Shown here: one piece after another, positions 2,856-61,450 of the stretch | Position numbering within the stretch: position 1 is the first letter of the stretch | How the letters are laid out: every line of letters starts with the position of its first letter | Origin: a virus | Length of the DNA: 64,000 bases | Reading direction: 5' to 3' (one strand) | Virus record (IMG/VR): IMGVR_UViG_3300045988_129305 | Span: 25,078-89,077 of that record | Notes under the pieces: model-generated | Told to the model about the DNA's origin: nothing | The model's database searches: none | Seen by the model: the letters and a program-made list of their open reading frames with translations, nothing else | Translations under genes and position numbers: made by a program

Positions 2856-2929
2856 ATGGCTCAGAATCATTTTCTGGCGGGTGTTGGTCGTGCACTCCTC
2901 TTCGATTCTAATAATCTTATAGGTGTGGT
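2856..2929 (+). CDS. major tail-tube-like structural protein, exon 1 (boundary approximate)
   Basis: ATG 2856 follows GGAGGA. The frame (MAQNHFLAGVGRALLFDSNNLIGVV) closes at TAA 2934. The exon end UGUGGU(2929) can pair with intron GCCAUG (2939-2944) as a P1 helix with U.G at the splice site. Confidence 0.6.
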
Positions 2930-3298
2930 AAAATAATAGCCATGCACATTTTGTGAAAAGTGTGTACTTTGGGTTAAATGCTGGCAATCCCTAAAGCTTA
3001 CATACCTAAACAGTAGTTAGAAATGACAAGCTGAATGGTTACGAAAGTAGAAAAAAGTTGTAAGATAGATATATGGTTAAATCCTAAGTATCTATACAAT
3101 GGGTCTTCAGCAACGAAATCCCTAAGTCTATAAAGATATGGGAAACGCTCAACGACTATCCCTTTGCGAGGGAGTAGGGGCAAGTGCTCCAAAAAATCCA
3201 CTTCTTAACAAATAAGAAGAACATATAGTCTTATCTCATGTGAAAGCATGAGCAGTTTATTTTGCTCGAATAAACGGCATAAGCCTAACGAACTTATG
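2930..3298 (+). ncRNA. group I self-splicing intron (phage td/IA2-like core), ORF-less
   Basis: 370-nt ORF-free gap between two in-frame coding pieces. Core motifs are CAACGACTATCC (3150-3161), GGAGTAGGGGCAAGTGCTCC (3170-3189) and ACATATAGTC (3221-3230, J8/7-P7-type). It starts after a U and ends in G 3298. Its length is a multiple of 3, as needed because both exons are in the same frame. Confidence 0.75.
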
Positions 3299-4310
3299 TG
3301 AAAATTATGCAAAGACCTTAACTGAGAGCACCTTTAATTTTAGTATATCCAATGAAGAGATTCGTGGCGGTAGCGGTAATGCACTGTTTGGCAAGTATTT
3401 CCATGACAGTAATCTTGCGATTACGCTTACGGATGCCATGTTTAAGCTCGAATATGTTGCGGCGAATCTTGGCGTTGATATTGAGCAGGGCGGTCTGTCT
3501 GTTTATGAGTCCCCTGCTCAGGGCGAAACTATTGGCACTGGCGGCGTAATTACTCTTACTAATACTGCCGTTGCATTTAATGGCTCCATTATCGGTTGGT
3601 ATAAGAAGCCCTCTGATAATTATTGGACTATTGCAAATATTGTTGGCAATAAGATAACTATTCCTGACTATCAGACTGGTGATAGTTATTGTATTAAGTA
3701 TTTCTATCAGAATCAGAACGCACGTCATATTACTATTAATACTCAGTATGTGCCCAAGACGCTTCATGTTGTTATTCTTAACGACCTGTTCTCTGGCGAT
3801 ACTAAGGACGTTGCAAATGCAAGTAAGTATGGTCGTCTGATTACTGATATTCCCAGTTTCCAGCTGGACGGTAATCAAGACCTTAATTTAACTGCAACTT
3901 CTGCGGCAACTGTTTCTCTGACTGGTAACGCTCTTGGCGTTGAGTCTGGTGATAGTTGTGAGGAAGAGCCGTATTATGGCACTATGACTGAGGAAATCTT
4001 TGGCGCGAACTGGAAGGATGATGTTGTTGCTCTCGCTATTGAGAACGCCGATATCGAGCTTGCTACTGGCGCTAAGGAGACTCTGGTTGTTCGTGCGGTT
4101 TATGGCGGTTCTGTTGCTTCTGCTCGTATTGATAATGCTGATGTAACGTTTGCTATTGAGGAGGGTACTTCTGGCTCTTCTACGGTAATTGAAGTCGGTG
4201 CTAACACTGGCGTTATTACCGCTAAGGCGGCTGGTAATGCTGTGGTTTCTGCAACGCTTACTGGTCATCCCAATATTGTTGCATACGCTACTGTTGAAGT
4301 TACTGGCTGA
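3299..4310 (+). CDS. major tail-tube-like structural protein, exon 2, with C-terminal Big_2-type Ig domain
   Basis: The frame is open from 3252, well upstream of the track ATG 3438 (..ENYAKTLTESTFNFSISNEEIRGGSGNALFGKYFHD..). The C-terminus (TLVVRAVYGG..VVSATLTGHPNIVAYATVEVTG) is Big_2-like. A strong terminator follows. The tail-tube assignment rests on position and the Ig domain only. Confidence 0.75.
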
Positions 4311-5093: not shown

Positions 5094-5577
5094 GAACGAC
5101 GAAGAATTATCCAAGGCCGCAACTGATAGGCTTGACCAAGCTATGAATTATATGATGGGCGAATTGCTTATAGAGAATGAAAAGAAAGTTCAAAAGACAG
5201 TATATGACGCATATTCGCCTGATGTCTATAAGCGTACTGACGATTTTAAGTTGGCTTGGGATATAGATCACTCAAAATCGGATAAATCAGTTGAGGGCGA
5301 ATTTTATTTTGAGCCGAGTTATTTATCTGTTGATGCCGACGACTTACAACACACTGATATATATGGTGAATCAATGGCTGATGAAATGGCAGATTTAATA
5401 TATCAAAGTGGTCCCGGTTTATTTCATAGACCAACGAAACGTAATGCTTGGAAGAAAACAGATAAATGGTTTAGTAAAAATAAAATAATAGAATTATATC
5501 AGCGCGGCATGAAACGAGCTGGGCTACCTGTTAAGAAATCAAGCGGTGATCCGGTTAAAACATCACATGAGGATTAA
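5080..5577 (+). CDS. hypothetical late protein
   Basis: 165-aa ORF overlapping the previous ORF by 14 nt in another frame. No slippery heptamer seen. Confidence 0.55.
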   Translation: MPTFENDEELSKAATDRLDQAMNYMMGELLIENEKKVQKTVYDAYSPDVYKRTDDFKLAWDIDHSKSDKSVEGEFYFEPSYLSVDADDLQHTDIYGESMADEMADLIYQSGPGLFHRPTKRNAWKKTDKWFSKNKIIELYQRGMKRAGLPVKKSSGDPVKTSHED

Positions 5578-6111
5578 ATGAGAAGTAATTGTATCATGGG
5601 CTTAGATTTATCTACATCTTGTACTGGATATAGTATATTTGATAAATCCGGCCTTATAGCGTATGGCAAAATTAAGCCAAAGAATAAAGATTGGCGAGAA
5701 CGTATAGAGGAACAAGCAATATCATTGGGTGATATAATGCGCAAATACCACCCAATAAGGGCGTATATAGAAGATGTACCATTAAAGCCCGGTTCGTCAA
5801 CATTGGTAAAATTAGGGGCTATGCAAGGTATGATATTGGCTTTATGTAGTCAATATAATTGTAAACCAATATTTCTTTTACCTGTTCATTGGCGAAAAGA
5901 GCTTGATTTATATGATGGTACTCGACAAGGATTACAGAGAGACATACTTAAACAAAAAGCCGTACAGACGGTGAATGACGAATTTGGCATTGGGCTTAAT
6001 TGGGTTTCACCTAAAAGCAAATTAAATGATGATGATATTGCTGAGGGTATACTTATAGCTTATAGCCAAATCATGAAATACAGACGTAGCCAAGAGAATA
6101 AATCACAATAA
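5578..6111 (+). CDS. RuvC-like Holliday junction resolvase
   Basis: GLDLSTSCTGYS (catalytic Asp), AYIEDV (Glu) and DDDIAEGILIAY (C-terminal Asp pair). Size is typical of RuvC-fold phage resolvases. Confidence 0.75.
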   Translation: MRSNCIMGLDLSTSCTGYSIFDKSGLIAYGKIKPKNKDWRERIEEQAISLGDIMRKYHPIRAYIEDVPLKPGSSTLVKLGAMQGMILALCSQYNCKPIFLLPVHWRKELDLYDGTRQGLQRDILKQKAVQTVNDEFGIGLNWVSPKSKLNDDDIAEGILIAYSQIMKYRRSQENKSQ

Positions 6112-6126
6112 GGAGTGTGATGGATA

Positions 6127-6489
6127 TTGGCGAATAGCGCATGGAAAATTAAAGTCGGCGTTGACCTTGACACTAGCGAGATTGATGCTAAACTACAAGA
6201 AAAGCAAAGCAAGCTAACAGTTAAAGCAAGTGGTGCTGAAGAAGTTGGGAAGTTAGGTAAAGCGACAGAGGAAGCCGATAACAAGGCTAAAGCTGCCGGT
6301 TTAACTTATCAACAGTATAGACTTATATTAGATAATTGTGCCAAGGCAATAACTAGTATGGCTGAACAGACAAAGAAGTTAGATTCTGCACAAACAGAGT
6401 TCAAGAAAGTCTCCGATTTGTCTGGCAAGTCATTAGATGATTACACTAAAAAGCTTGCCGATATGGGTAAGCAAGTTGGACGTAGCGGT
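6127..6489 (+). CDS. tail tape measure protein, exon 1
   Basis: TTG start 11 nt after AAGGAG. Coiled-coil N-terminus ..FKKVSDLSGKSLDDYTKKLADMGKQVGRSG. Exon end GCGGU(6489) can pair with intron GCCGC (6502-6506) as P1 with U.G. Confidence 0.7.
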
Positions 6490-6851
6490 TAACTTTTCTG
6501 AGCCGCCGTGATGGGATGGTAAACCAGCACGAAGAATAGCTCCTAAACCCTTGAAAGCCTCAAGAGCCTTGCCACCACAACATAAGGATGAGATAGGCCT
6601 AAGTGTGAAAAATATGTAGATTTGCTCCACATAATATAAAATTATGCAACTACATGGTGAGAAATCAATAAAACGGCAAGGATAATATATGGTCGAAAGA
6701 CCTAAGTATTATGTCACGAATATTATATAATAAACGGGACAAAAGGGCAGATTGGGCGCGAAGTCCTGATGAGGGATGTGTCAACAGACTATACAGAGCA
6801 GTCCACCAATTTATAGGATGAAGAAATAGTCGATAAGTAATTGAAAACTAC

Positions 6852-6880
6852 TTGACAAAAGATTCATTATGTGTTATGGT
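6852..6880 (+). promoter_or_regulatory. sigma-A-type promoter inside the intron region
   Basis: TTGACA (6852-6857), 17-nt spacer ending TGTGT, TATGGT (6875-6880). The only + strand copy of the promoter type used by the - strand early genes. Confidence 0.6.
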
Positions 6881-6906
6881 TGAATCAACCAAAGGAGGTT
6901 GATTAT

Positions 6907-7113
6907 ATGTTTATGGTGATTGTTGTTGTAGTTATTATTGTACCAGTTGTGTATATTACATTTTTTGCAAGTATTATACATTCATTGGTTACAAAGCCTA
7001 AAACAAGTGATAGTAATAGACATGTTCCTTCTGAGACTCAGATAAAAACTGAAGAGGAAGAAGGACTCGAACAGTATGGTGAATTTTTTGATGAACATTA
7101 TTTTTGGCCTTGA
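6907..7113 (+). CDS. small single-pass membrane protein with acidic tail, intron-embedded
   Basis: ATG 6907 about 8 nt after AAAGGAGG. MFMVIVVVVIIVPVVYITFFASII.. is a hydrophobic helix followed by an acidic tail (TEEEEGLEQYGEFFDE). The SD lies in an 8-bp hairpin AATCAACC/GGTTGATT. Confidence 0.6.
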   Translation: MFMVIVVVVIIVPVVYITFFASIIHSLVTKPKTSDSNRHVPSETQIKTEEEEGLEQYGEFFDEHYFWP

Positions 7114-7409
7114 TTAATTAGTCAGAAATGATTGAGGCTGCAACTAAATAATTTGGTTGAGTATATGGCGACATATATAATGAATGGGGTGAATTGCTGG
7201 GAAGCCCTTAGAGTCTTACATACCGAAGTGTGACAATTGTAAGAATTGGGTAATCAGCAGCTAAGCCAATATTGAGTTATTGGAAAGTCCAACGACTAAG
7301 ATTGAAATAATATCTGTAGGATTCAAGTGAGTCCGAAGTGCTCCATATCTATTGATAAATAGATAAAGATATAGTCTAAACTTATGTGAAAATATAAGAG
7401 GTGTTTATA

Positions 7410-8216
7410 ATGAGAAATAATAAATTAAAAGAAATTCAAGCATGGTGTGAAGGGCACAATATAAAACCCTATAATATTCGCAATGTTGTTCGAGGTGGCA
7501 AGACAGAAATAAAACTCACTTGTTCCTGTAAAGAATGTGGAGAGCGATACGATATTATGTGGTGTAGTTTGAAAGTCCAGACCTATCCGGGGCTATGTAC
7601 TAAATGTGCGCATAAGCGCTCTCAAGAAGGTCGCAGACTGTCGGCTCAAAAGGTAATAAGCTTGTTTGAAAAGTATGGCTACAAAGTCCTTACGCCTGTT
7701 GATAGAATTAAACCGATTGGTAAACAGCAGCTTTATAATAGGTCTATTGTTACGATTCAAGATAAATATGGAACTACTTATGATATATGTTGGAACAATT
7801 TTCACAATAGATTACAGTATTATCTTGATATAAACGATGGTGGACATTGTGCTGAGGGTGATAGAGATTTAAGTTGTTTAGAGCAAAAAGTAGCTGATTA
7901 TTTAGACGAATTGTGTATAAGTTATAAGCGCGAATTTAAGTTTTCTGATTGTCGTGGCAATAAAAGAATGTTGCCTTTTGATTTTTGCCTGAATTATGAT
8001 AAACCTAATAGGTTATTAATCGAAGCTGATGGGGAGCGACATTATAAAGAATATTTTGTTGAATTGCGCAAATATGATAAAATAAAAGATTATTATTGCA
8101 ACTCTCATAATATTCCCTTACTTAGAATCCCTTATTGGGAGTTCGACGATGATACTTACAAACAAAGTATAGATAATTTTATAAACACTAATAGTAGTAA
8201 CGATACTATTGAATAA
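7410..8216 (+). CDS. intron-encoded homing endonuclease, Vsr/PD-(D/E)xK (EDxHD-like) type with N-terminal zinc finger
   Basis: ATG 7410 after AAGAGGTG. CSCKECG..CTKC zinc finger. The C-terminal PFDFCL..LLIEADGERHY..IPLLRIPYWE matches the Vsr/DUF559-like nuclease core. It sits 3' of the intron P7 motif and ends 6 nt before the proposed 3' splice site. Confidence 0.75.
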   Translation: MRNNKLKEIQAWCEGHNIKPYNIRNVVRGGKTEIKLTCSCKECGERYDIMWCSLKVQTYPGLCTKCAHKRSQEGRRLSAQKVISLFEKYGYKVLTPVDRIKPIGKQQLYNRSIVTIQDKYGTTYDICWNNFHNRLQYYLDINDGGHCAEGDRDLSCLEQKVADYLDELCISYKREFKFSDCRGNKRMLPFDFCLNYDKPNRLLIEADGERHYKEYFVELRKYDKIKDYYCNSHNIPLLRIPYWEFDDDTYKQSIDNFINTNSSNDTIE

Positions 8217-8222
8217 TGATTG

Positions 8223-11200
8223 GAATTTCGCAAGAACTCATTCAATGATGAAGATTCCGCGACTCTGGCGCAAGTAGCGACATTATACCAAAATGTTGCT
8301 GATGATGCGATATCTGCAAGTGATAGTGCAAGTATTATAATATCTCAAATGAAAGCGTTCAATATTCCTGCTGAGAACGCGATTCATATCATAGATGCAA
8401 TTAATGCCGTCAGCAATAATTTTGCCGTTTCGTCTACAGATGTTGCCACGGCTTTATCTAAAACTAGCTCTGCAATGGGCGTTTTAGGTAATGATTTTGA
8501 GTCAACTATAGGACTTGTCGTGGCTGGTACGGAAATTATGACCGGACAAGCCACAAAAGTGTCACGTGGACTTAGAACCATCGGCAACAACTTTGCAAAA
8601 GCCGCTAATGATGCAGGAGAAATTGAATATAAAGTTGGTGGCGCAACAAAATCTTTATCTCTTATGGATGAAACCACGGGAGATATGAAATCGACATTCC
8701 AGATATTCAAAGATTTGAAATCCGATTGGGACAATATGTCGAGTTCTGAGCAGCAATCTATAGCATTGGCTTATGCTGGTAAGAACCAGTTTGAAGTATT
8801 CGGTGCGGTTATGAATAACTTCCAAGCGGCTATAGATGCTGCTAATACGGCTTATGATTCACAAAAATCTGCAATGGATGAAAATGCCTCTTATATGGAA
8901 TCTATTGAGGCGAAATTACAAAATCTCAAAGCCGCATATGAGAATTTTGCATCCAATACAATTACAAAAGAATTTATCGGTTCAATATTAGATGCTGGCA
9001 CAAAATTACTCGAATTTGCTAACACTGATATGGGGCAAGCCGTTGCTAAAGCAGTATTATTTGGCGGTGCGATTACTGGTGTTACTGGTATTGCCGGTGA
9101 ATTTATTAGCAAAATAATTGGCATTGCATCTTCAGTTAAAAAAGCCACGGGTGGCGTAGAGGCTTTTCTGGGGATGGCCGCTGGCGGTAAGTGGACAGTC
9201 ATAGCGTTGGCTATAGGCGCTGTCGCGGCGGCTATTATTTTAATTGTAGACGCGATAAAAAATGCCGACAGCAAATTCGATAAATTCATGGGCGAATTTG
9301 ATAAGTCTAAGCAAAAGACAGAAGAGTATCAACAAAGCTTAGATGATACAAAGAAAAAGCTCGATGAATTAAATAATACACCCTATGCCGATAGAACATC
9401 TGAACAACAGCACGAAATAGAAGTTCTTCAAGATCAGATAGAGTATTATCAGCAACTTATAGACCTTGAAAAACAGAGACAAACTGAGGCTGCTATAGGT
9501 GCGTATCAAGAAGCTATTAAGGGCGGCGTTAAAATGGGCACCAAAGTTCATGGCGCAGACCGTAGTATCTATGGACAATATTTACAGTATGGCGATAGAG
9601 ACAGATTTAAGGGCTTTGATTTAACTGCTGAAGAAATTGCACGATTTGATGCTTTGGATGCGTTACCATCTAAATTTAGTAGCGTTCAAGCAGCGGCGGA
9701 AGCCTATGCTAAGGCATTGGGGCTCTCATGGGTAAACGCTGACGGCACGATTAAGTCTGTCGAAGATATGCAAAATGAGCTTGAAGATTTCGGCATTGTT
9801 ATAGATGATGTTGTTGCAGATTTAGAAACCTCTTCATCGGCGTTTCAGGAGCTTGCTGATAACATAAGCAAGGGTGCAAAACCTACTCAAGAACAATTAA
9901 ATCTTGCAAAGAGCTACATAGAATCAAATAAGCAAATAGCTGATGGTTTGCAAGCTAGATTAGAAAATGGTGATAAACTATCTGATGCTGAGTCGCAATG
10001 GTTATCAAATTATAATAATCTACTTAATGCTTACAAAGAGGGTCAGGATGCATTAGATAAATATAATAAATCGGTTGAAACCGCAGATAAAGCGTTGGCT
10101 AGTTTCCCCGACCACATGAAGAATAGTTCAAGTGCAATAGGAGAAGTCGCTAAGGCACTTGTTAATAATTCTGAATTAGGTATAACTTCTGTTAAGGGAT
10201 TAAAGACAGCGCTGTTAGATTTAGCTGCGGGGGACGCTATTGATTTATCTAAAATTGGCAATATTGATGATTTTATTGCCAAGTTGGTAGAAGCCGAAGG
10301 CATTAAATTTAGCGATAAAAATATTAATGTCGAAACAAACGCCGAAGAAGCTAAAAATCAGATAGAAGCAGTCAATGATAGTGTGGAAGATCAGAGCATG
10401 GATGTCCACATTAGTACAGTTGCGGAAGGTCACGAACTTGAAGGGGCATTACAAAATATTGCCGACTGGATAGATAAGATTAATGGCAAAACAGTTAAAG
10501 TAACGCTTGAAGCTGATGTTTCTGCGGCTAAAGAACAAATCAATTCAGTAACAAATGATATAAATAATATTGTTGCTGGTGTTGATGTTACTATAACGAC
10601 TAATGCGCCAGAGGCTAGAGCGCAAATTCAAGACGTTCAATCTGCGGCTGATGCATTATCTAATGTTAAACCTAAAGTAACTGTTAAAGCTAATATAACC
10701 TCTGCTTTAACAAACCTTAACACCATTAAGAACTATACCATACCAGACAAATATTTCTCTGTTGTTTGTTCCGGTGCTAGTGTTGCTATACAGAATCTTG
10801 CTACTATTAAACGTGGACTTGACCAGTTGCATGATAAAACTGTAACTGTTACGGTTAATTATAAGAAAACAGGTAAGTATGCAACTGGTACTAAATCGGC
10901 TCCGGGTGGATTAGCATTAATAAATGATGGCGCACCTGTTAATGGTTCTGCTGGTGAATTAGTCGTACATGATGGTGTTGGTCAAATTTACAATGATGGT
11001 AAAGAGACCGTCCAGCCAATACCTAAGGGCGCTAAAATTTATACAGCTAGACAAACCCAAGGCATTCTTAAAGACCGTGGCTTAACAGTGGATGATGTAG
11101 CCGAGAATCCCATCCCGGCTATGGCCAACGGCACTAAGAATAATCCTAAATACCCCGATAGGCGAAATGATCCGACTTATTCTGGTGTTACTACTCTTTA

Positions 11201-11852
11201 TGGCTCTGGCGAGGACTTAAAGAAGAATTTTGAGGAATGGCTAAAAGAAAAGAAACACTGGCTTAATATGGATGTTATCTCTGAAGCACAGTATTATCGT
11301 GATTTAGAGATAATGAATGAGCGATACTTAAAAAATCTTAGTGATGCTAAAGACGAATATTGGCAACATGAGGAAGAAATATATAAGTATCAAAATCAGT
11401 CCCTTGAAGATCAGATTAGGCTTGAAGAGAAATTAAGTGATTTAGCTAAAGCCAAAGAGAATAGGGTATATGCGCTTAGTGGCGGTCGTTTCCAGTATTT
11501 ACAGAATCTTGATGCTATAGCAAAAGCTCAAAGAGAAGTCGACCAGTTAACAGGTAAGTATGCTAATGGTACAACTAACGCAAGAGGTGGACTATCTTTA
11601 GTTGGCGAAAATGGACCTGAGATGCGGGTGCTTGGACATGGCGATGGTATAATCCCGGCTGAAGCAACAAAGAATCTCATGGCATTGTCAAGCCTTAATA
11701 TTAAAGATGCCCTGTCCAACATAGGACGAGCCATAGTGACTAACTACTCCTTTGATATTAGTCGGCTTGAATTACCGAGCGTTTCTAATGCTGGTGAGTT
11801 CTTAGATGGCTTAAAGAATCTTGCATATCAATATAGTTATGCAAGAGCATAA
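8223..11852 (+). CDS. tail tape measure protein, exon 2
   Basis: About 1209 codons. TP901-type TMP core (FRKNSFNDEDSATLAQVATLYQNVADDAISASDSASIIISQMKAF..VSSTDVATALSKTSS), a Gly/Ala-rich membrane-like segment and long coiled coils. The frame has a stop at 8217-8219 just upstream. Confidence 0.85.
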   Translation, partial: EFRKNSFNDEDSATLAQVATLYQNVADDAISASDSASIIISQMKAFNIPAENAIHIIDAINAVSNNFAVSSTDVATALSKTSSAMGVLGNDFESTIGLVVAGTEIMTGQATKVSRGLRTIGNNFAKAANDAGEIEYKVGGATKSLSLMDETTGDMKSTFQIFKDLKSDWDNMSSSEQQSIALAYAGKNQFEVFGAVMNNFQAAIDAANTAYDSQKSAMDENASYMESIEAKLQNLKAAYENFASNTITKEFIGSILDAGTKLLEFANTDMGQAVAKAVLFGGAITGVTGIAGEFISKIIGIASSVKKATGGVEAFLGMAAGGKWTVIALAIGAVAAAIILIVDAIKNADSKFDKFMGEFDKSKQKTEEYQQSLDDTKKKLDELNNTPYADRTSEQQHEIEVLQDQIEYYQQLIDLEKQRQTEAAIGAYQEAIKGGVKMGTKVHGADRSIYGQYLQYGDRDRFKGFDLTAEEIARFDALDALPSKFSSVQAAAEAYAKALGLSWVNADGTIKSVEDMQNELEDFGIVIDDVVADLETSSSAFQELADNISKGAKPTQEQLNLAKSYIESNKQIADGLQARLENGDKLSDAESQWLSNYNNLLNAYKEGQDALDKYNKSVETADKALASFPDHMKNSSSAIGEVAKALVNNSELGITSVKGLKTALLDLAAGDAIDLSKIGNIDDFIAKLVEAEGIKFSDKNINVETNAEEAKNQIEAVNDSVEDQSMDVHISTVAEGHELEGALQNIADWIDKINGKTVKVTLEADVSAAKEQINSVTNDINNIVAGVDVTITTNAPEARAQIQDVQSAADALSNVKPKVTVKANITSALTNLNTIKNYTIPDKYFSVVCSGASVAIQNLATIKRGLDQLHDKTVTVTVNYKKTGKYATGTKSAPGGLALINDGAPVNGSAGELVVHDGVGQIYNDGKETVQPIPKGAKIYTARQTQGILKDRGLTVDDVAENPIPAMANGTKNNPKYPDRRNDPTYSGVTTLYGSGEDLKKNFEEWLKEKKHWLNMDVISEAQYYRDLEIMNERYLKNLSDAKDEYWQHEEEIYKYQNQSLEDQIRLEEKLSDLAKAKENRVYALSGGRFQYLQNLDAIAKAQREVDQLTGKYANGTTNARGGLSLVGENGPEMRVLGHGDGIIPAEATKNLMALSSLNIKDALSNIGRAIVTNYSFDISRLELPSVSNAGEFLDGLKNLAYQYSYARA

Positions 11853-60759: not shown

Positions 60760-60834
60760 TGGCGGGGGCAATAGGACTCGAACCTATAATGTTGGAGTCA
60801 AATTCCAATATGTTACCAATTACATCATACCCCT
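60760..60834 (-). tRNA. tRNA-Gln (anticodon UUG)
   Basis: 75 nt with encoded CCA. D-arm ATGT/ACAT with AATTGGTA loop, anticodon arm TTGGA-ATTTGAC-TCCAA, T-arm ATAGG-TTCGAGT-CCTAT. Discriminator G73 and an unpaired A1.C72, both consistent with Gln identity. Confidence 0.8.
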
Positions 60835-61365: not shown

Positions 61366-61450
61366 TGGTGCGGAATATGGGACTCGAACCCATAAGCCTT
61401 ACGGCATCCGAGCTTAAATCGGATGTGTTTCCCAGTTTCACCAATTCCGC
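61366..61450 (-). tRNA. tRNA-Leu (anticodon UAA), class II
   Basis: 85 nt with encoded CCA. Acceptor GCGGAAT/ATTCCGC, anticodon arm TCCGA-TTTAAGC-TCGGA, long variable arm TGCCGTAAGGCTT, T-arm ATGGG-TTCGAGT-CCCAT. Confidence 0.9.

What the first reader, a model, noticed from the sequence alone, without database searches (positions are those of the whole stretch)
6490..8222. Tape-measure gene interrupted by a 1.7-kb composite of two group I intron cores (tandem or nested)
The TMP N-terminal piece ends ..GKQVGRSG at 6489. The TP901-type TMP core resumes at 8223 (EFRKNSFNDEDSATLAQ..). Deleting 6490-8222 begins after a U, ends in a G and is exactly in frame. Two separate sets of intron core motifs lie inside.
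- Set A (6490 to about 6850) has a P1 (GCGGU/GCCGC) and td-like P4-P6/P7 5' motifs, but I could not find its P8/P7' half before the embedded promoter and ORF.
- Set B (about 7125-7400) looks like a complete td-like intron with the homing endonuclease in its 3' region.
Stops in all frames between A and B leave room for at most a few-nt mini-exon. This suggests a twintron or intron-in-intron arrangement, or a defective intron rescued by its neighbour.
Basis: partly seen in the sequence, partly recalled or inferred. Interest (0 to 1): 0.7.

Follow-up and report, generated by a model that had tools for sequence, protein, structure and literature searches.

The report
Two tandem introns, 24-base mini-exon

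Summary
The 1.7-kb insert is real, but it is not one composite or nested element. It is two independent group I introns in tandem:
- exon 1 ends at 6489
- intron A is 6490-7121
- a 24-nt mini-exon is 7122-7145 (SEMIEAAT)
- intron B is 7146-8222
- exon 3 starts at 8223

The three-exon product aligns without a gap to uninterrupted tape-measure proteins.

Intron B is an ordinary IA2-type intron (Rfam 79.6 bits). It carries an I-Bth0305I-like homing endonuclease in its 3' tail.

Intron A scores below the Rfam threshold (about 12 bits), but it is a complete ribozyme. P1-P10 and the P3/P7 pseudoknot are supported by 27 compensatory pairs across 30 relatives. Instead of an endonuclease it carries a conserved sigma-A-type promoter and a small membrane-protein gene under purifying selection.

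Relatives show all four states of the two sites: neither intron, A only, B only, or both. This excludes a twintron and a "defective intron rescued by its neighbour".

Group I introns at several sites in tape-measure genes were already described in Bacillus cereus-group prophages. This is therefore a new variant of a known kind. Splicing itself is inferred, not shown.

The parts
6127..6489 (+). TMP exon 1 (121 codons, ends ..GKQVGRSG).
   Evidence: ORF. It aligns with the N-termini of uninterrupted TMPs. Its last 5 nt, GCGGU (6485-6489), form P1 of intron A.
6490..7121 (+). Intron A, 632 nt. A divergent group I intron that scores below the Rfam threshold. It starts with an in-frame UAA and ends in G7121.
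   Evidence: Homologues lie at the same TMP site in about 46 loci. Seventy modelled pairs are 99.4% paired, and 27 show compensatory change against 1-3 in slid controls. The window copy keeps 69 of 70 pairs. All 37 relatives with a readable 3' end finish in G before TC(A/T)GA.
6496..6506 (+). Internal guide sequence of intron A. UUCUGA (6496-6501) pairs with the mini-exon start UCAGAA (P10). GCCGC (6502-6506) pairs with the exon 1 end GCGGU (P1, with a U6489-G6502 wobble).
   Evidence: Read directly from the sequence. P1 has compensatory changes (CG/GC, CG/UA) and an invariant U-G in 30 of 30 sequences. P10 has a compensatory change in L073: guide UCAGA with exon UCUGA, against UCUGA/UCAGA elsewhere.
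6507..6853 (+). Ribozyme core of intron A:
- P2 6507-6531
- P3 6539-6542/6796-6799
- P4 6548-6552/6743-6747
- large P5 extension 6567-6702
- P6/P6a 6755-6782
- P7 6785-6791/6827-6832, with a bulged A
- P8 6801-6819
- P9 6835-6853
   Evidence: The Rfam model aligns P6, J6/7-P7, P8, the GAAGAAAUAGUC element and P9 with high posterior probability. P4 never varies, so it is untested.
6852..6880 (+). Sigma-A/sigma-70-type promoter inside intron A (TTGACA, 17 nt, TG-n-TATGGT). The -35 hexamer overlaps the 3' strand of P9.
   Evidence: TTGACA-17-TGnTAnnnT is present in 25 of 25 distinct intron A copies.
6907..7113 (+). Cargo gene of intron A: a 68-aa protein with one N-terminal transmembrane helix and an acidic, aromatic C-terminus (..EQYGEFFDEHYFWP). 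RBS AAAGGAGG at 6892-6899.
   Evidence: Every intron A copy carries 1-3 such ORFs. dN/dS is 0.06-0.21 in seven pairs. No Pfam, PHROG or NCBIfam family matches.
7122..7145 (+). Mini-exon (exon 2), 24 nt: UCA GAA AUG AUU GAG GCU GCA ACU = SEMIEAAT.
   Evidence: It fills exactly the 8-residue gap left by a 6489/8223 join. It is continuous with the downstream exon in A-only loci and with the upstream exon in B-only loci. 0 of 5000 shuffles encode a matching peptide.
7146..8222 (+). Intron B, 1077 nt. An IA2-type group I intron with an in-frame stop after one codon (AAA UAA). It ends in G8222.
   Evidence: RF00028 at 79.6 bits, E 1e-18. Homologues score 79-101 bits in L034 and L072-L076. In 8 sequences, 33 pairs covary. 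An ORF-less version of about 300 nt in L034 ends ..UUAUUG|GAAUUUCGC.
7141..7159 (+). P1/P10 region of intron B. The mini-exon end CAACU (7141-7145) pairs with GGUUG (7155-7159), with a U7145-G7155 wobble. AAUUU (7150-7154) can pair with the exon 3 start GAAUU (8223-8227) as P10.
   Evidence: P1 has compensatory variants: CAGCU/GGCUG (L017), UUACU/GGUAA (L073) and CCACU/GGUGG (L079).
7161..7398 (+). Ribozyme core of intron B:
- P2 7161-7178
- P3 7185-7191/7339-7345
- P4 7195-7200/7254-7259
- P5/P5a 7204-7251
- P6 7267-7282
- P7 7292-7298/7372-7377
- P7.1 7299-7315
- P7.2 7319-7334
- P8 7346-7365
- P9 7381-7398
7410..8216 (+). Homing endonuclease gene in the 3' tail of intron B (268 aa). It has an N-terminal Cys-rich region and a C-terminal PD-(D/E)xK-type nuclease domain. 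Its stop codon lies 6 nt before the 3' splice site.
   Evidence: It matches phrog_559, 9084 and 7140. Sixty-nine homologue clusters were found; all nine sampled loci (L072-L079) put them in this intron at this TMP site. The AF2 model has pLDDT 91. The best PDB fold match is the I-Bth0305I catalytic domain, 3r3p_B (prob 1.0, target TM 0.69, E 0.013).
8223..11852 (+). TMP exon 3 (1209 codons plus stop), starting EFRKNSFNDEDSATLAQ.
   Evidence: PF10145 at 59.4 bits and phrog_4211 at E 1e-60. About 40% identity to Enterocloster phage TMPs.

Best explanation
The tape-measure gene is split into three exons by two independent, tandem group I introns. It is transcribed as one pre-mRNA.

Each intron removes itself by the standard two-step, guanosine-initiated mechanism:
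- Intron A (6490-7121) pairs its guide GCCGC with the exon 1 end GCGGU (P1). It pairs UUCUGA with the first six bases of the mini-exon (P10).
- Intron B (7146-8222) pairs GGUUG with the last five bases of the mini-exon (P1). It pairs AAUUU with the start of exon 3 (P10).

The two guide-binding sites in the 24-nt mini-exon (7122-7127 and 7141-7145) do not overlap, so either intron could go first. Ligation gives ..GKQVGRSG-SEMIEAAT-EFRKNSF.., a 1338-aa TP901-type tape-measure protein.

Intron B is a conventional mobile IA2 intron. Its I-Bth0305I-like endonuclease presumably cuts intron-less alleles near GCAACT/GAATTT.

Intron A has no endonuclease. It carries its own sigma-A-type promoter and a small membrane-protein gene, which is expressed independently of the TMP message.

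Shown here: the anatomy, conservation, covariation, occupancy states and reading-frame restoration. Inferred: catalysis, order of splicing, endonuclease target, and expression and role of the cargo.
For: 1. The three-exon product aligns without a gap across both junctions to five uninterrupted TMPs. The two-exon product leaves an 8-residue gap and loses 19-21 bits.
2. Intron B: RF00028 at 79.6 bits, with 33 covarying pairs including P1.
3. Intron A: 70 pairs are 99.4% paired and 27 are compensatory, against 1-3 in slid controls. P1, P2, P3, P6a, P7, P8 and P9 are all supported. U-G at the 5' splice site is invariant and the terminal G is invariant. P10 carries a compensatory change.
4. All four occupancy states exist:
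   - neither intron (P0044, P0052 and others; Enterocloster phages)
   - A only, in 36 loci
   - B only, in L077-L079
   - both, in the window, L034, L017 and L072-L076
5. L034 has an ORF-less intron B with the same ends.
6. In-frame stops lie at or next to both 5' splice sites.
7. No Shine-Dalgarno sequence precedes the TTG at 8220.
Against: - No RNA data exist, so splicing is inferred from sequence alone.
- Intron A fails the Rfam gathering score (11.6-11.9 against 50 bits).
- The P4 and P5 pairings of intron A never vary, so they are untested.
- The divergent copy in L073 could not be fitted to my P3/P4 model.
- P10 of intron B is short and A/U-rich (5 pairs, one a wobble), and it overlaps the lower part of P1.
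- The endonuclease fold match is the top hit, but its E-value is only 0.013.
Confidence: 0.88

Rival explanations
1. 6490-8222 behaves as one composite unit, either a twintron or a defective intron A rescued by intron B. It is removed as a whole, joining 6489 to 8223.
For: The 6489/8223 join follows a U, ends in a G and is in frame. Rfam does not recognise intron A at its threshold.
Against: - The join deletes eight residues that every uninterrupted homologue has, including a nearly invariant Met.
- Those residues are encoded at 7122-7145.
- A and B each occur alone at their own sites.
- Intron A's core is complete, and 69 of 70 pairs are intact in the window.
- Intron A's P10 guide UUCUGA matches the mini-exon, not exon 3 (GAAUUU).
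Confidence: 0.03
2. Exon skipping as a side product. Besides the three-exon mRNA, some transcripts join exon 1 directly to exon 3 and skip the mini-exon. This would give an in-frame TMP that is 8 residues shorter.
For: The skipped product is in frame. From my own knowledge, not checked here: exon skipping by group I ribozymes was reported for the three-intron orf142 of Staphylococcus phage Twort (Landthaler and Shub 1999).
Against: Intron A's P10 guide shows no complementarity to exon 3. The eight residues are conserved in all homologues, so a skipped product would probably be defective. There are no data on it.
Confidence: 0.15
3. No splicing. The intron cores are relics, and the TMP is made as two polypeptides: 121 aa from 6127, and 1210 aa from the TTG at 8220.
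For: Gene callers annotate the pieces separately, and many database homologues start or stop at these points.
Against: - Both ribozymes are held by compensatory substitutions across dozens of genomes.
- The guides co-vary with the exons.
- No RBS precedes 8220.
- The mini-exon keeps coding for the conserved octapeptide although it lies in no long ORF.
- Related phages encode one continuous TMP across the site.
Confidence: 0.04

Closest known systems
Group I introns TMP-IVS1, -IVS2 and -IVS3 in tape-measure genes of Bacillus cereus-group prophages (Tourasse and Kolsto 2008, PMC2504315)
   Same: - The host gene is of the same type (a TMP of more than 1200 aa).
- Several alternative insertion sites lie within one gene.
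- The introns are IA-class.
- Occupancy among related phages is patchy.
- P1/P10 are adapted to each site.
- Some copies lack a complete endonuclease gene.
   Different: - Here two introns sit only 24 nt apart in the same gene copy.
- One of them is a ribozyme lineage that Rfam does not detect, and it has no blastn relative in 50,697 GenBank phage records.
- That intron carries a promoter plus a membrane-protein gene rather than an endonuclease or nothing.
- The phages are about 85-100 kb gut phages, nearest to Enterocloster phages.
Multi-intron phage genes: Twort orf142 with three group I introns (own knowledge), and the Bacillus phage Moonbeam terminase and DNA polymerase with two introns each (PMC4299906)
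   Same: Several self-splicing group I introns lie in one phage ORF. The exons are short. Each intron has its own guide sequence.
   Different: I found no report of a phage exon as short as 24 nt between two group I introns. Here all four occupancy states are documented in natural genomes.
T4 td / nrdB / nrdD (sunY) type IA2 introns with an endonuclease ORF
   Same: Intron B has P7.1/P7.2, conserved P4/P6/P7 elements, a stop codon just inside the 5' splice site, and an endonuclease ORF with its own RBS outside the catalytic core.
   Different: The endonuclease is not GIY-YIG or HNH but PD-(D/E)xK-like. The ORF fills the 3' tail almost up to the splice site.
I-Bth0305I, the homing endonuclease of the recA group I intron of Bacillus phage 0305phi8-36 (PDB 3R3P)
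   Same: It is the best structural match to the C-terminal nuclease domain of the window's endonuclease. Both are encoded in a group I intron in a phage of a Gram-positive host.
   Different: Identity is only 24% over 114 columns, with E 0.013. The conserved residues here read E205-x-D207-x3-H211 .. K226. The N-terminal 150 residues, including a Cys-rich segment, have no solved counterpart.
Mini-exons between group I introns in fungal mitochondrial cox1 genes (own knowledge, not checked here)
   Same: Very short exons are flanked by two autonomous group I introns. Each end of the exon must serve as a guide partner for a different ribozyme.
   Different: Those are organellar, depend on maturases, and are not in a virus.

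Membership tests
Group I intron (Rfam RF00028): intron B | Covariance-model score at or above the curated gathering score | tested here: met
   79.6 bits against 50, E 1.3e-18, with the full model 1-253 matched.
Group I intron (Rfam RF00028): intron B | U-G wobble at the 5' splice site in P1, a terminal G, and P10 with the 3' exon | tested here: met
   U7145-G7155 is kept in 8 of 8 sequences, with compensatory changes elsewhere in P1. G8222 is the last base. AAUUU/GAAUU can form P10. P10 itself has no covariation test.
Subgroup IA2: intron B | P7.1 and P7.2 hairpins between P7 and the P3 3' strand | tested here: met
   P7.1 is 7299-7315 and P7.2 is 7319-7334. Both have compensatory changes.
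Group I intron: intron A | Covariance-model score at or above the curated gathering score | tested here: not met
   11.6-11.9 bits against 50. Only the P6-P9 half is aligned sensibly.
Group I intron: intron A | A contiguous internal guide forming P1 (with U-G at the 5' splice site) and P10, plus a terminal G | tested here: met
   U-G in 30 of 30 sequences. P1 has 2 compensatory pairs. P10 has a compensatory change in L073. The last base is G in all 37 copies with a readable 3' end.
Group I intron: intron A | P3/P7 pseudoknot, with P7 carrying a bulged nucleotide, and P8 between P3' and P7' | tested here: met
   - P3: 7 U-A against 23 C-G.
- P7: two compensatory pairs, including the pair across the bulge.
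- P8: two compensatory pairs.
Group I intron: intron A | Canonical P4-P5-P6 domain with J4/5 | tested here: inconclusive
   P6/P6a are well supported. P4 (CCCUU/AAGGG) never varies. No P5 partner was identified. A large multi-hairpin extension replaces a simple P5. The L073 variant did not fit.
Group I intron: both introns | Guanosine-dependent self-splicing | not testable with these tools
   Needs in vitro transcription and splicing, or cDNA.
Twintron / nested intron | One intron lies inside the other, so the outer one is interrupted and the two are not separated by exon sequence | tested here: not met
   A conserved 24-nt coding exon separates them. Each intron exists alone at its site in relatives.
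PD-(D/E)xK 'EDxHD' homing endonucleases (I-Bth0305I family) | Fold of the catalytic domain | tested here: met
   The top PDB hit is 3r3p_B (prob 1.0, target TM 0.69, rmsd 4.5 over 114 columns), but with E 0.013. The model has pLDDT 91.
PD-(D/E)xK 'EDxHD' homing endonucleases (I-Bth0305I family) | Catalytic motif and site-specific cleavage of the intron-less allele | tested here: inconclusive
   D191, E205, D207 and K226 are invariant and H211 nearly so, but the spacing was not compared residue by residue with I-Bth0305I. Cleavage is not testable here. There is no sequence-level PDB hit. Pfam gives only a sub-threshold DUF2726 match.
TP901-type tape-measure protein (Pfam PF10145 PhageMin_Tail) | Pfam domain above the gathering score, long length, and position in the tail module | tested here: met
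   59.4 bits against 33.2 for exon 3. phrog_4211 at E 1e-60. The spliced length is 1338 aa. It is syntenic with the Enterocloster phage TMPs.

The most novel reading that the evidence does not exclude
Intron A represents an undescribed lineage of endonuclease-less group I introns whose conserved payload is a promoter-driven cassette of 1-3 small membrane-protein genes.

On this reading it is a self-splicing intron used as a carrier for accessory ('moron'-like) genes inside an essential tail gene. It would be kept because the cargo benefits the phage, for example through superinfection exclusion or lysis timing. It might spread by co-conversion when the neighbouring intron B endonuclease cuts 24 bp away.

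The evidence does not exclude this:
- the promoter is present in 25 of 25 copies
- the cargo has dN/dS of 0.06-0.21
- no endonuclease is present in any copy
- the intron is common at one site in this phage group (46 loci retrieved)
Probability: 0.4. Interest if true: 0.7.

Novelty: new variant of a known kind. Interest (0 to 1): 0.5.

Why it matters
- **Annotation.** The TMP of this whole group of gut phages is called as two to five fragments. The obvious in-frame repair (6489/8223) gives a protein missing eight conserved residues, so short exons between adjacent introns need homology-guided splicing.
- **Detection.** Intron A is invisible to RF00028 at the curated threshold, although it is a well-conserved ribozyme present in dozens of genomes. 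It would extend the group I seed, especially for the unusual P5 region.
- **Biology of the two sites.** The four occupancy states, 24 bp apart, form a natural system for asking two questions. How do adjacent introns and one endonuclease influence each other's spread, through co-conversion or target disruption? Does a 24-nt exon constrain folding or the order of splicing?
- **Biology of the cargo.** A group I intron whose constant cargo is a promoter plus a small membrane protein, not an endonuclease, would change the view of what phage introns carry, if the cargo proves functional.

Tried and rejected
- **Rfam on set A.** It scored only 11.6-11.9 bits. I had to build the structure from 30 relatives instead.
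- **RNAalifold on intron A.** It paired GCYC with an invariant GGGC at alignment columns 272-275. I rejected that in favour of P3 with columns 323-326, which co-varies 7 against 23.
- **P4/P5 of intron A.** No P5 partner was found and P4 never varies. The divergent L073 copy could not be reconciled with my P3/P4. This is left open.
- **An early idea about intron B's guide.** I thought it might pair with the end of exon 1 (GCGGUU). I dropped this once GAGGCUGCAACU turned out to be the mini-exon itself.
- **megablast of 5500-9500 against GenBank phages.** No match. blastn of the intron A core also gave no match.
- **Host identification.** I scanned one genome per species for intron A motifs. One motif gave nothing. 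The other hit only a 20.8-kb contig of a Bacteroidales MAG, probably a binned phage contig.
- **Endonuclease.** There was no sequence hit in the PDB, none in NCBIfam, and no close relatives in IMG/VR. It was classified only by predicted fold.
- **Cargo protein.** No Pfam, PHROG or NCBIfam family matched. Only nine near-identical homologue clusters were found.
- **Literature.** Searches for phage mini-exons, tandem introns or membrane-protein intron cargo found nothing directly comparable.
- **Third intron at 2915-3252.** Its exact junction could not be fixed.
Full report
**What is at the coordinates**

The window carries the tail module of a phage. Its tape-measure protein (TMP) is nearest, at about 40% identity, to those of the 97-107 kb Enterocloster bolteae phages CB473P3 and PMBT24.

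An ORF at 6127-6489 ends ..GKQVGRSG and runs straight into TAA. A 1210-codon ORF whose sequence from 8223 reads EFRKNSFNDEDSATLAQ.. holds the PF10145 TMP domain. In the Enterocloster phages one continuous TMP of about 1510 aa spans both pieces.

**The missing eight residues**

I joined 6489 to 8223 as proposed and aligned the product with 19 homologues. Every uninterrupted homologue has eight extra residues exactly at the junction: consensus GR-T-x-x-E-M-V-x-x-A-T-EFRK, against GRSG-EFRK in the window.

Those residues are encoded inside the insert. Bases 7122-7145 read UCA GAA AUG AUU GAG GCU GCA ACU, which is SEMIEAAT.

The three-piece product ..GRSG-SEMIEAAT-EFRKNSF.. aligns without a gap across the site to five uninterrupted TMPs. 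It gains 19-21 bits over the two-piece product. None of 5000 shuffles of the insert encodes an octapeptide fitting the consensus.

**Intron B (7146-8222)**

Rfam's group I model matches 7136-7398 end to end at 79.6 bits (gathering score 50, E 1e-18). The first helix of that match is P1. The mini-exon end CAACU (7141-7145) pairs with GGUUG (7155-7159), and U7145-G7155 is the splice-site wobble.

Eight homologues from other contigs keep this wobble. They change the other P1 pairs in a compensatory way: CAGCU/GGCUG, UUACU/GGUAA and CCACU/GGUGG. Thirty-three of the predicted pairs covary, including P2, P3, P5a, P7.1, P7.2, P8 and P9. The presence of P7.1 and P7.2 makes it an IA2-type intron, like most phage introns.

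AAUUU (7150-7154), directly 5' of the P1 guide, can pair with the first five bases of exon 3 (P10), and G8222 is the terminal G.

A close relative (L034, IMG/VR 3300013383_000026) has the same intron without the ORF. It is about 300 nt long and ends ..UUAUUG|GAAUUUCGC. This fixes the 3' boundary and shows that the ORF is an insertion in the 3' tail.

**The endonuclease of intron B**

ORF 7410-8216 matches PHROG families annotated as homing or intron-encoded endonucleases. It has 69 homologue clusters in gut metagenomes.

An AlphaFold model built on 36 sequences has pLDDT 91. Its best match among solved structures is the catalytic domain of I-Bth0305I, a PD-(D/E)xK homing endonuclease from a group I intron of a Bacillus phage (3r3p_B: prob 1.0, target TM 0.69, but E only 0.013).

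D191, E205, D207 and K226 are invariant in the family. No sequence-level match to any solved structure was found.

**Intron A (6490-7121)**

Rfam gives only 11.6-11.9 bits, so I tested it by comparison.

*Distribution.* Two conserved 21-mers retrieved about 46 loci from IMG/VR, plus two ENA contigs found through the closest TMP homologues. Each copy sits at the same TMP site (..GR(T/S)G | intron | S(E/D)M..), and each contig had a single match to each motif.

*Structure.* An alignment of 30 distinct cores supports a group I architecture:
- P1 with an invariant U-G
- P2
- the P3/P7 pseudoknot
- P6/P6a
- P7 with a bulged base
- P8 and P9
- a large multi-hairpin extension where P5 would be

*Covariation.* The 70 modelled pairs are 99.4% paired. 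Twenty-seven have compensatory changes, against one to three when the 3' partners are slid by 1-3 columns. No shuffle reaches the observed covariation score. The shuffle control ignores relatedness, so the slid control is the stronger one.

*The window's copy.* It keeps 69 of 70 pairs. The Rfam model, where it aligns at all, places P6, J6/7-P7, P8, the GAAGAAAUAGUC element and P9 on the same bases as my model.

*The guide.* It is contiguous and classical. UUCUGA (6496-6501) is the exact complement of the mini-exon start UCAGAA (P10). It is followed by GCCGC (6502-6506), which pairs with the exon 1 end GCGGU (P1).

*P10 covaries.* In the divergent copy L073 the guide reads UCAGA and the exon reads UCUGA, where all others have UCUGA and UCAGA. 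This is a compensatory change made through a synonymous Ser codon.

*Terminal G.* All 37 copies with a readable 3' end finish in G.

*Open points.* P4 never varies, no P5 partner was identified, and L073 does not fit my P3/P4.

They lie at 6801-6832, upstream of the promoter.

**Tandem, not nested**

The two sites are occupied independently.
- **Neither intron:** P0044, P0052, P0063 and others, and the Enterocloster phages.
- **A only:** 36 loci in which the exon after intron A runs on as SEMVEAATEFRKNGF...
- **B only:** L077, L078 and L079. There exon 1 runs ..GRTGSEMIDAAT and is followed directly by intron B with the endonuclease.
- **Both, always with a 24-nt exon between:** the window, L034, L017 and L072-L076.

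This excludes a twintron and a defective-intron-plus-helper model. The two guide-binding segments of the mini-exon (7122-7127 and 7141-7145) do not overlap, so either intron could splice first. In-frame stops sit at 6490-6492 and 7149-7151, just inside each 5' splice site.

**The cargo of intron A**

Between P9 and the 3' splice site every copy carries one to three short ORFs. Each has a strong RBS, one or two N-terminal transmembrane helices and an acidic, aromatic C-terminus. Examples are ..NEWGLDDDWRWGKL and ..KYDNEWGYIK. In the window it is 68 aa at 6907-7113, ending ..EQYGEFFDEHYFWP.

- All 25 distinct copies have TTGACA, exactly 17 nt, then TG-n-TAnnnT. This is an extended -10 promoter whose -35 overlaps the 3' strand of P9.
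- Seven pairwise comparisons give dN/dS of 0.06-0.21, so these are real genes.
- They match no Pfam, PHROG or NCBIfam family.
- No copy of intron A encodes an endonuclease.

What the proteins do is unknown. How an endonuclease-less intron became so common at one site is also unknown. Co-conversion during homing of intron B, 24 bp away, is one possibility that I could not test.

**Comparison with what is known**

Group I introns in TMP genes, at three alternative sites and with patchy occupancy, were described in Bacillus cereus-group prophages (PMC2504315). Phage genes with two or three group I introns are also known (PMC4299906; Twort orf142, from my own knowledge).

The kind of thing is therefore known. 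Three aspects are new relative to what I could find:
- the 24-nt exon between two autonomous introns in a phage gene
- a ribozyme lineage that neither Rfam nor blastn against 50,697 GenBank phage records detects
- its constant non-endonuclease cargo

Literature searches found no matching description, but the searchable library is incomplete.

**Verdict**

The best-supported reading is two independent tandem group I introns and a three-exon TMP (confidence 0.88 for the architecture). Splicing, the endonuclease target and the cargo's function are inferred. I rate it a new variant of a known kind, with interest 0.5.

Noticed in passing
window 2857-3437 (Rfam hit 2915-3252, + strand): A third group I intron lies in the window. 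It scores 46.9 bits, just under the gathering score of 50 (E 8e-9).

It splits a tail gene:
- Exon 1 starts at ATG 2857 (MAQNHFLAGVGRALLFDSNNLIGV..) and stops near 2925-2930.
- The frame of ORF 3438-4310 is open from 3252 (..AKTLTESTFNFSISNEEIRGG..).

L039 has the same gene without the insert (..TIIGFAKTLTESTFGF..). It appears ORF-less. I could not fix the exact splice junction.
   Followed up: partly
L034 9332-9676 (- strand); equivalent to window 6401/6402: The close relative L034 has a further 383-nt group I intron (RF00028, 101 bits). It is inserted in TMP exon 1 at the site TE|FKKVS, 87 nt upstream of intron A. That TMP therefore has three introns within about 115 nt of coding sequence. 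The window lacks this intron.
   Followed up: partly
P0012, P0013, P0016, P0019 (end after ..AYAGK); P0044, P0052, P0063 (end at ..YMESLEA); L075 3816-5518; L076 3879-5687; L077 3888-4257: Many TMP homologues on contigs of 50-120 kb are called as fragments of only 350-400 aa. They read through into non-homologous sequence at two recurrent points. Some loci have extra ORFs of 239 or 385 aa inside the TMP. This suggests further intron sites downstream in the TMP of this phage group. The window's exon 3 is uninterrupted.
   Followed up: no
L073 2113-2718: This is a divergent copy of intron A.
- It has a long insertion in the P8 region.
- Its P3/P4 segment is changed (GAAUUGUUCAAAAUCCAG.. where the others have ..AGCCCCUAAACCCUUG..).
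- I could not fit it to the P3/P4 pairings supported by the other 30 sequences.
   Followed up: partly
window 5578-6111: A RuvC-like Holliday-junction resolvase gene (PF02075, phrog_827) lies immediately upstream of the TMP, inside the tail module. The same placement occurs in Enterocloster phage PMBT24, where it is annotated as RuvC endonuclease.
   Followed up: no
window 60763-60834 and 61369-61450 (- strand): Two tRNA genes (Rfam RF00005, 56.9 and 56.3 bits).
   Followed up: no
L080 2679-2699 (SFEA01000039.1, 20.8-kb contig of a 'Bacteroidales bacterium' MAG): This is the only hit for an intron A motif among one genome per bacterial species. It is probably a phage contig binned into the MAG, so it says little about the host.
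   Followed up: no
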